Assembly (NCBI RefSeq): GCF_058153355.1 | Contig: NZ_CM177019.1 | Length of the DNA stretch: 64,000 bases | Strand: one strand, 5' to 3' | In this document: piece after piece, positions 33,988 through 34,027 of the stretch | How the letters are laid out: the number at the start of each line of letters is the position of its first letter | How positions within the stretch are numbered: the first letter of the stretch is position 1 | The notes under the pieces: generated by a model | The model's input: only the letters and a program-made list of their open reading frames with translations | Database searches by the model: none | What the model was told of the DNA's origin: nothing | Position numbers and translations under genes: made by a program

Positions 33988-34027
33988 ATGAAATGATGAT
34001 ATTCCGCATAAGAAAGAGGCATTTTTA
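33988..34027. repeat. 40-bp repeat, copy 1 (upstream of the autotransporter gene)
   Basis: gatgaaatgatgatattccgcataagaaagaggcattttt; 38/40 identical to copy 2 at 44068..44107, same orientation. Confidence 0.7.

What the first reader, a model, noticed from the sequence alone, without database searches (positions are those of the whole stretch)
33988..34027. 40-bp near-identical direct repeat present twice about 10 kb apart (copy 1)
Copy 1 (33988-34027, about 150 bp upstream of the autotransporter start) and copy 2 (44068-44107) are 38/40 identical in the same orientation, with no extended similarity in the flanks. On the minus strand both encode the same start of a mini-ORF: MPLSYAEYHHFI... 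at copy 1 and MPLSYAKYHHFI followed by a stop at copy 2. Candidate explanations: a shared regulatory operator or leader peptide, a recombination site, or a scar from duplication or transposition. The repeats bracket the BluR/BluF-ymg-pdeG cluster plus ycgX and iraM.
Basis: seen in the sequence. Interest (0 to 1): 0.5.

Follow-up and report, generated by a model that had tools for sequence, protein, structure and literature searches.

The report
Orphan scrap of an adhesin-gene leader
The 40-base repeat is real, but one copy is ordinary upstream DNA of an E. coli adhesin (autotransporter) gene and the other is an isolated 43-base leftover of that DNA inside decayed prophage remains, with no sign that it does anything.

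Summary
33987-34026 and 44067-44106 match 38/40 in direct orientation, none are expected by chance, and the flanks are dissimilar.

Copy 1 is not a discrete element. It lies 149-188 nt upstream of an intact AIDA-type autotransporter gene, inside a ~380-bp leader shared with the paralogous ypjA locus and with the K-12 ymgJ/ycgI locus. Nearly all E. coli genomes carry this sequence, 1-3 times each.

The mini-ORF is the 39-codon ORF that databases call "ATPase". It has no recognisable domain and no Shine-Dalgarno sequence. All 8 variable sites are nonsynonymous, so it does not behave as a coding sequence.

Copy 2 occurs in only 18 of 5426 complete genomes. It is a 43-bp orphan between the convergent 3' ends of iraM and trkG. 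On one side is a Rac-type trkG cassette, on the other a lambdoid ren-nin fragment, and the whole 6.3-kb segment is bracketed by duplicated icd 3' ends (the e14 attachment region).

No genome shows a deletion junction between the two copies. I found no Rfam match, stable RNA fold or promoter-like site at either copy, and no pin-like recombinase gene in the window.

Best reading: a decay scar, or a fragment captured during prophage decay. Interest is low.

The parts
33987..34026 (-). Copy 1 of the 40-bp repeat. It is part of the leader upstream of the autotransporter gene, and the sense of that gene is the minus strand.
   Evidence: The homologous sequence is in K-12 at the 3' end of ymgJ and 150 bp upstream of ypjA.
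44067..44109 (-). Copy 2: an orphan 43-bp fragment of the same leader sequence, in the same orientation as copy 1.
   Evidence: Only these 43 bp match other E. coli genomes. Present in 18 of 5426 complete genomes.
33839..34215 (-). The ~380-bp upstream region shared with the paralogous ypjA locus. The most conserved block is 33877-34016, with copy 1 at its distal edge.
   Evidence: Alignment A2 and the sliding identity profile.
29162..33838 (-). Intact AIDA-type autotransporter gene. It is a paralogue of K-12 ypjA (95% identical over 3.9 kb). The K-12 pseudogene ycgI is a 344-bp remnant of it.
33714..34022 (-). Mini-ORF starting in copy 1. It is 39 codons in most E. coli, where databases name it 'ATPase'. 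In this lineage the stop codon TGA has become CGA, extending it to 102 codons.
   Evidence: (PGAP pseudogene 'ATPase').
44064..44102 (-). Truncated mini-ORF in copy 2 (12 codons plus a stop).
44156..45856 (-). trkG cassette (CDS 44206-45681), with the 3' end of a phage Rz gene upstream, as in the Rac prophage. Its 3' boundary at 44156 is the same in 39 of the 40 phage-contig loci that align there.
43913..44017 (.). Fragment 79% identical to the DNA just downstream of ren in lambdoid prophages.
42001..42066 (.). Old copy of the icd 3' end and terminator (icdC-like). It marks the inner boundary of the prophage-derived segment that contains copy 2.
   Evidence: (D5, D6).
48317..48383 (.). The true icd 3' end and terminator, partner of 42001-42066.

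Best explanation
Copy 1 is ordinary sequence within the ~380-bp upstream region of an AIDA-type autotransporter gene. This region plus the gene exists as a paralogous pair in E. coli: the ypjA locus and the ymgJ/ycgI locus.

Copy 2 is a non-functional orphan, 43 bp (at most ~56 bp) of that leader. It is left in a patchwork of decayed prophage DNA at the icd (e14) attachment region. Two origins are possible. It may be the last remnant of a third leader or autotransporter cassette that was otherwise deleted. Or it may be a short piece captured during the illegitimate recombination that assembled this debris.

Shown: the paralogy of copy 1, the isolation of copy 2, its rarity, the prophage origin of its surroundings, and the absence of coding, RNA-structure, promoter and rearrangement signals. 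Inferred: that copy 2 has no function, and the route by which it arrived.
For: Copy 1 is part of a paralogous stretch.
- It is embedded in contiguous homology with K-12 ypjA-upstream and K-12 ymgJ DNA.
- The 48-mer occurs 1-3 times in 5287 of 5426 genomes.

Copy 2 is isolated and rare.
- Only 43 bp match anywhere else.
- It is present in 18 of 5426 genomes.
- No autotransporter coding remnant lies downstream of it.

Copy 2 sits in prophage debris.
- A Rac-type trkG cassette lies on one side. Its boundary at 44156 is uniform in 39 of the 40 phage-contig loci that align there, and none of them carries the patch.
- A ren-nin fragment lies on the other side.
- The segment is bracketed by icd 3'-end repeats.
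- iraM here is only 80% identical to K-12 iraM, against 92-97% for neighbouring core DNA.
- In K-12 the ypjA copy also abuts phage debris, a pin gene truncated at residue 94.

No functional signal was found.
- All 8 variable sites in the mini-ORF are nonsynonymous.
- Protein searches find only short Escherichia ORFs without domains.
- There is no meaningful Rfam hit.
- Fold z-scores range from -1.1 to +1.3.
- No promoter- or terminator-like site overlaps either copy.
- No genome has a deletion junction.
Against: - No intermediate genome was found with a longer leader fragment next to trkG or iraM, so the deletion-remnant route is not demonstrated.
- Copy 2 is still 95% identical to copy 1, while the sequence directly around it has no detectable relative. 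For a neutral relic, this means either that it is fairly young or that the flanks come from an unsampled source.
- Absence of function rests on sequence-based negatives. No expression data were available.
- The right edge of the repeat coincides with the point where paralogue identity drops from 95-100% to below 90%. I have not explained this.
Confidence: 0.72

Rival explanations
1. Shared cis-regulatory element. The 40-mer would be an operator, or an RNA-level binding site for a protein or small RNA, present in the autotransporter leader and reused near trkG/iraM.
For: Copy 1 lies in the best conserved part of the leader, 95-100% identical between paralogues. Copy 2 keeps 38/40 identity although its flanks are unrelated. 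On the mRNA-sense strand the element contains CCUCUUUCU, an anti-Shine-Dalgarno-like run, seen by inspection.
Against: Copy 2 lies between convergent 3' ends, 97 nt past the trkG stop and 596 nt past the iraM stop, upstream of no gene. The 40-mer is not a conservation peak but the edge of a 150-bp block. I saw no dyad symmetry. There is no stable or shared fold, no promoter-like site and no Rfam family. Copy 2 exists in only 0.3% of genomes.
Confidence: 0.08
2. Small protein or leader peptide. The ATG in the repeat would start a translated mini-ORF (39 codons in most E. coli) that regulates the downstream autotransporter gene or acts on its own.
For: The ORF is open in all 16 leader copies examined. 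It is annotated as a protein, named 'ATPase', in hundreds of database entries, and PGAP marks it as a pseudogene here.
Against: All 8 variable nucleotide sites are nonsynonymous and none falls at a third codon position. By inspection there is no Shine-Dalgarno sequence within 15 nt upstream of either ATG. No domain or family matches. The curated K-12 annotation reads this DNA in a different frame, as the end of ymgJ. That frame is itself broken in this window by the length of a T run. Copy 2 encodes only 12 codons.
Confidence: 0.05
3. Recombination substrate. The direct repeats would be att-like or homologous-recombination sites that delimit a 10-kb mobile or excisable island (ymg/blu/ycgX/iraM).
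For: The repeats are direct and bracket a gene cluster of patchy phylogenetic distribution. In K-12 a paralogous copy lies next to an invertase remnant, pinH.
Against: K-12 and more than 5000 other genomes carry the same cluster with copy 1 only, so the repeats do not define the island. None of 5426 genomes has the predicted deletion junction. The window has no Pin-like gene. The real att-type duplication in this region is a different sequence, the icd 3' end. From memory, the sequence does not resemble Hin/Gin/Cin/Pin crossover sites; I did not test this.
Confidence: 0.05
4. Trans-acting antisense. If copy 2 were transcribed from the plus strand, the RNA would be 38/40 complementary to the autotransporter mRNA leader and could regulate it.
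For: The only support is geometric. The plus strand of copy 2 is antisense to the minus-strand leader that contains copy 1.
Against: No plus-strand promoter-like site lies upstream of copy 2. A terminator-like hairpin follows iraM at 43523-43540, and another lies at 44009-44026 before copy 2. No terminator follows copy 2, and no Rfam family matches.
Confidence: 0.03

Closest known systems
Upstream region of ypjA (ehaD), and the ymgJ/ycgI locus, in E. coli K-12
   Same: Copy 1 is the orthologue of the K-12 ymgJ 3' end (34/35 identical) and a paralogue of the sequence 150 bp upstream of ypjA (34/35). About 380 bp of contiguous homology joins them, plus the autotransporter gene.
   Different: In this window the autotransporter gene is intact, whereas K-12 ycgI is a 344-bp remnant. 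The ymgJ reading frame is not preserved. The stop codon of the 39-codon ORF is lost.
Prophage decay relics and att duplications at the icd/e14 site (icdC, pinH, the trkG cassette of Rac)
   Same: Copy 2 lies in a segment bracketed by icd 3'-end repeats and made of short phage-derived pieces: an Rz 3' end, a trkG cassette and ren-nin DNA. Like icdC or pinH, it is a short leftover of something once longer.
   Different: Its source, an autotransporter leader, is not itself recognisable phage DNA. No longer intermediate was found.
Interspersed repeat families of E. coli (REP/BIME, ERIC/IRU, Box C, RSA)
   Same: It is short non-coding sequence found more than once in the genome.
   Different: There are only 1-3 copies per genome and no stable fold. 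Two of the copies are simply parts of a gene duplication.
Database protein family 'ATPase' (39 aa, Escherichia/Shigella)
   Same: The mini-ORF at copy 1 is this entry.
   Different: The name has no basis that I could find: no domain, no family hit, no relative longer than 149 aa. The substitution pattern argues against coding.

Membership tests
Autotransporter (ypjA/ycgI-type) upstream leader | Contiguous homology across the ~380-bp leader, followed by the autotransporter gene | tested here: met
   This applies to copy 1.
Autotransporter (ypjA/ycgI-type) upstream leader | The same, applied to copy 2 | tested here: not met
   Only 43-56 bp are similar. No autotransporter coding remnant lies downstream. 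Copy 2 is a fragment of the leader, not a leader.
Interspersed repeat family (REP/BIME, ERIC, Box C, RSA) | Tens to hundreds of copies per genome | tested here: not met
   1-3 places per genome across 5287 genomes.
Interspersed repeat family (REP/BIME, ERIC, Box C, RSA) | Stable fold (imperfect palindrome or stem-loop) | tested here: not met
   Fold z-scores of the 66-nt segments range from -1.07 to +0.82 on the two strands.
Island-flanking att or site-specific recombination repeats | Both repeats present wherever the island is present | tested here: not met
   K-12 has the island with copy 1 only. Copy 2 is in 18 of 5426 genomes.
Island-flanking att or site-specific recombination repeats | A recombinase gene associated with the repeats | tested here: not met
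   No Pin-like match anywhere in the window. No integrase is annotated in the homologous region of EC42405.
Island-flanking att or site-specific recombination repeats | Empty-site or deletion junction in other genomes | tested here: not met
   No record among 5426 genomes covers at least 80% of the chimeric junction query.
Leader peptide or small protein | Purifying selection in the reading frame | tested here: not met
   All 8 variable sites are nonsynonymous and none is at codon position 3. The sample is small: three sequence types in nine sequences.
Leader peptide or small protein | A ribosome-binding site and evidence of translation | not testable with these tools
   No Shine-Dalgarno sequence is seen by inspection. 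No ribosome profiling data are available here.
Known RNA family (Rfam 15) | Score at or above the gathering threshold | tested here: not met
   The only hit overlapping either copy is GlsR14 at copy 1, 12.2 bits against a threshold of 90. Nothing overlaps copy 2.
Decayed prophage segment at icd (setting of copy 2) | Bracketing duplication of the attachment target, with phage-derived fragments inside | tested here: met
   icd 3'-end repeats at 42001-42066 and 48317-48383. Rz 3' end plus trkG cassette as in Rac. ren-nin fragment. iraM matches phrog_4407; ycgX (phrog_413) lies just outside the segment.

The most novel reading that the evidence does not exclude
Copy 2 is retained because it works. 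It could be a decoy or second binding site for a factor that acts on the autotransporter leader. Or, if transcribed from the plus strand, it could be a 40-nt trans-antisense RNA against that leader. Either way, expression of a chromosomal adhesin would be coupled to a prophage-derived segment in this rare E. coli lineage. A milder version is that copy 2 is the last trace of an autotransporter cassette once carried by a phage integrating at icd, which would mean YpjA-type adhesins spread through prophages.
Probability: 0.05. Interest if true: 0.45.

Novelty: new member of a known kind. Interest (0 to 1): 0.12.

Why it matters
It matters little for biology. The finding is an example of how paralogous leader DNA and prophage decay leave short, highly similar orphan fragments that can look like regulatory or recombination sites.

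Two practical points follow. First, the widely propagated 39-aa 'ATPase' annotation (and the frame-unstable ymgJ ORF over the same DNA) probably does not describe a real protein. Second, the region from iraM to trkG in this lineage is layered prophage debris bracketed by icd 3'-end repeats. That is useful context for anyone studying how iraM was acquired.

Tried and rejected
- **Real ATPase fragment.** I checked whether the mini-ORF is the N-terminus of a true ATPase, as PGAP's label suggests. NCBIfam gives nothing. A search of 5.8 billion proteins gives only 7 short Escherichia ORFs. The cluster look-up shows that 'ATPase' is the name of the 39-aa ORF itself. Rejected.
- **Part of the trkG cassette.** K-12 Rac lacks copy 2. 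Of the 40 phage-contig trkG loci that align past the gene, 39 end their homology at 44156, and none has the patch. Rejected.
- **Phage origin of the leader or the patch.** There is no significant hit in 50,697 phage records. The IMG/VR hits are all ypjA loci next to CP4-57-type prophages. Not supported.
- **Wider distribution.** The pattern scan of GTDB species representatives returned only two contigs, filed under Terrisporobacter and an uncultured Clostridiales bin. Both are E. coli-like DNA and are probably contamination or misbinning. No Escherichia record was returned at all, not even for E. coli itself, so this scan says little about absence elsewhere.
- **Copy-2-specific sequence.** The copy-2 35-mer and a 30-mer from its flank have no exact match in metagenome or viral contigs.
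- **Deletion junction between the copies.** None in 5426 genomes.
- **Autotransporter coding remnant beside copy 2.** None.
- **RNA structure, Rfam families, promoters and terminators.** Nothing at either copy.
- **Literature.** Nothing relevant on ymgJ. One genomic SELEX study lists an RpoS-holoenzyme site between ypjA and ileY (PMC5493296), which is not resolved to the 40-mer. PIRT-Seq reports a candidate CDS inside ypjA, not in the leader (PMC12350097).

Full report
**Observation**

Reading the two sites directly and searching the window confirms the repeat. 33987-34026 and 44067-44106 are 38/40 identical in direct orientation, 10,080 bp apart. No match is expected by chance (0 in 100 shuffles). 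The flanks do not align. A permissive local alignment extends the similarity to at most about 56 bp at 86%. On the minus strand both copies begin a mini-ORF, exactly as described.

**Where the window comes from**

The window is E. coli chromosome from a rare lineage. The copy 1 region is at least 99% identical in only 18 complete genomes and 80-95% identical in the rest. The copy 2 region exists in 18 of 5426 complete genomes.

The annotated homologue in strain EC42405, K-12 and the ORF list together give this layout:

| Feature | Window coordinates and strand |
|---|---|
| minCDE | upstream of the autotransporter gene |
| AIDA-type autotransporter gene, intact | 29162-33838 (-) |
| Copy 1 | 33987-34026 |
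| ymgI, ymgG, ymgD, ymgF, pdeG, ymgC, ariR, ymgA, ycgZ, bluF, bluR, ycgX | between the two copies |
| Extra AriR-like gene | 42645-42899 (+) |
| iraM | 43148-43471 (+) |
| Copy 2 | 44067-44109 |
| trkG | 44206-45681 (-) |
| 458-aa ORF of unknown function | 46616-47992 (-) |
| icd | 48369-49619 (-) |

**What copy 1 is**

In K-12 the same sequence (34/35 identical) lies at the 3' end of the annotated small ORF ymgJ, just upstream of ycgI. ycgI is a 344-bp remnant of the autotransporter gene that is intact here.

A second K-12 copy (34/35) lies 150 bp upstream of the paralogous autotransporter gene ypjA. A three-way alignment shows contiguous homology from inside the autotransporter gene to about window position 34215, roughly 380 bp upstream of the start codon. 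The gene itself is 95% identical to ypjA over 3.9 kb.

Within the leader, 33877-34016 is 95-100% identical between paralogues. The 40-mer sits at the distal edge of that block rather than forming a conservation peak of its own. Across 5426 genomes the 48-mer containing copy 1 is found in 5287 genomes, 1-3 times each. Copy 1 is therefore ordinary, widely conserved leader DNA of a duplicated gene.

**The mini-ORF**

PGAP marks 33906-34022 (-) as a pseudogene named 'ATPase'. The name is empty:
- NCBIfam finds nothing.
- A search of 5.8 billion proteins finds seven short Escherichia ORFs and no longer relative.
- An exact look-up shows that 'ATPase' is simply the name carried by the 39-aa ORF itself in hundreds of E. 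coli and Shigella entries.

The ORF is open in all 16 leader copies I collected. However, all 8 variable nucleotide sites fall at codon positions 1 or 2, and all change the amino acid. That is the opposite of what purifying selection on a protein produces. With random changes about a quarter would be synonymous. The sample is small, with three sequence types.

No Shine-Dalgarno sequence precedes either ATG (by inspection). The curated K-12 annotation reads the same DNA in another frame, as ymgJ. That frame is broken in this window because a T run is 5 bases long here, 6 in K-12, and 7 in copy 2. I conclude that the region evolves as non-coding DNA.

**What copy 2 is**

Copy 2 lies between two convergent 3' ends, 596 nt after the iraM stop and 97 nt after the trkG stop, so it is upstream of no gene. 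Only 43 bp (44067-44109) have any relative in other E. coli genomes, and those relatives are the leader copies. No autotransporter coding remnant follows it.

Its surroundings are prophage debris:
- The trkG cassette (about 44156-45856) matches the Rac prophage cassette, including the last ~70 bp of an Rz gene upstream and ~50 bp downstream.
- Of the 40 phage-contig trkG loci that align past the gene, 39 end their homology at the same point, 44156, and none carries the patch.
- 43913-44017 is 79% identical to DNA just downstream of ren in lambdoid prophages.
- The whole 6.3-kb segment from 42001 to 48383 is bracketed by two copies of the icd 3' end and terminator. This is the signature of phage integration at the e14 attachment site.
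- K-12 has the same old remnant between ymgK and ymgL, in addition to icdC.
- To the left of 42039 the window is 92% identical to K-12. To the right, iraM is only 80% identical. This fits a separately acquired, phage-derived variable region.

In K-12 the ypjA leader also abuts phage debris. Its distal end meets a pin invertase gene truncated at residue 94.

**Tests of function**

- Rfam gives no meaningful hit at either site.
- Neither strand of either copy, nor the whole 376-nt leader, folds better than shuffled controls.
- No promoter-like or terminator-like site overlaps either copy.
- A chimeric query representing the deletion product of recombination between the copies is covered by no record in 5426 genomes.
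- More than 5000 genomes, K-12 included, carry the bracketed ymg/blu cluster with copy 1 alone. The repeats therefore do not delimit that island.
- The window encodes no Pin-like recombinase.

**Most likely explanation**

Copy 2 is a non-functional orphan fragment of the autotransporter leader (confidence about 0.7). One possibility is that it is the last remnant of a third leader or autotransporter cassette, lost by deletion during prophage decay. The other is that it is a short piece captured by illegitimate recombination when the debris was assembled.

It differs from copy 1 at two positions and from the two K-12 copies at three each, by my count from the sequences. This divergence is comparable with that between the paralogues themselves. 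The route is inferred, because I found no intermediate genome.

Two things remain unexplained. The right edge of the repeat coincides with the drop in paralogue identity at the T run. The roughly 140 bp around the patch (44018-44155) have no detectable relative anywhere I searched.

**Rivals**

A shared operator or RNA-binding site (0.08), a leader peptide or small protein (0.05), a recombination substrate (0.05) and a trans-antisense RNA (0.03) are not excluded by experiment. Each lacks the sequence features it would need, as set out above.

**Comparison with what is known, and novelty**

The closest known things are:
- the ymgJ/ycgI and ypjA upstream regions of K-12, to which copy 1 belongs as orthologue and paralogue;
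- prophage decay relics such as icdC and pinH, the kind to which copy 2 belongs.

It is not a member of the REP/BIME, ERIC, Box C or RSA repeat families, because there are too few copies and no stable fold. It is not an att-type repeat either. The orphan itself is, as far as I can tell, undescribed, but it is a new instance of a familiar kind of thing. Interest is low (0.12).

Noticed in passing
window 42001-42066 and 48317-48383; K-12 locus L002 7445-7534: The icd 3' end and its terminator hairpin are duplicated 6.3 kb apart (84% identical). K-12 has an equivalent old remnant between ymgK and ymgL, besides icdC. So iraM sits between icd-end remnants in both lineages, which suggests successive phage integrations at icd and a phage origin for iraM.
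   Followed up: partly
window 43143-43508 (iraM), compared with 35295-42039: iraM is only about 80% identical to K-12 iraM, while the adjacent ycgX-to-ymgF cluster is 92% and the min region 97%. The iraM allele looks separately acquired. iraM also matches a phage protein family, phrog_4407.
   Followed up: partly
window 44156-45856: A Rac-type trkG cassette, still carrying the 3' end of a phage Rz gene, lies next to icd instead of inside a Rac prophage. Only 18 of 5426 complete E. coli genomes have this arrangement.
   Followed up: partly
window 29162-33838 (-): The autotransporter gene that K-12 retains only as the 344-bp pseudogene ycgI is intact here. It is 95% identical to ypjA over its C-terminal 3.9 kb but only ~84% in the N-terminal part and leader, which hints at gene conversion between the paralogues. 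In EC42405 PGAP marks it frameshifted.
   Followed up: partly
window 33906-34022 (-) and database entries: A 39-aa ORF with no domain is named 'ATPase' in hundreds of Escherichia and Shigella records. This appears to be an annotation artefact that keeps being propagated, including as pseudogene calls.
   Followed up: yes
window 33964-34134 (-), compared with K-12 ymgJ (L002 18265-18450): The ymgJ reading frame is not conserved between K-12 and this lineage. Frameshifts, including the length of a T run (5 versus 6), change most of the predicted peptide.
   Followed up: partly
window 42645-42899 (+): An extra AriR/YmgB-like gene (84 aa) lies between ycgX and iraM, where K-12 has only ymgK and ymgL. 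PGAP annotates it in EC42405. It has no PHROG or NCBIfam hit.
   Followed up: no
window 46616-47992 (-): A 458-aa ORF lies between trkG and icd. It has no NCBIfam or PADLOC match and only weak hits to PHROGs of unknown function. In EC42405 an IS100 inserted in an IS5 fragment lies beside it.
   Followed up: partly
window 41859-42293: Strain EC42405 lacks these 435 bp, which include the old icd-end remnant, relative to the window.
   Followed up: no
window 43511-43636 (-) and 43523-43540: A sub-threshold Rfam hit to the sRNA family STnc100 (22.9 bits against a threshold of 47, E = 0.012) overlaps a terminator-like hairpin just after iraM.
   Followed up: no
loci L005 and L006: E. coli-like DNA carrying the leader sequence appears in assemblies labelled Terrisporobacter mayombei (539-bp contig, coverage 0.74) and an uncultured Clostridiales bin. 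This is probably contamination or misbinning.
   Followed up: partly
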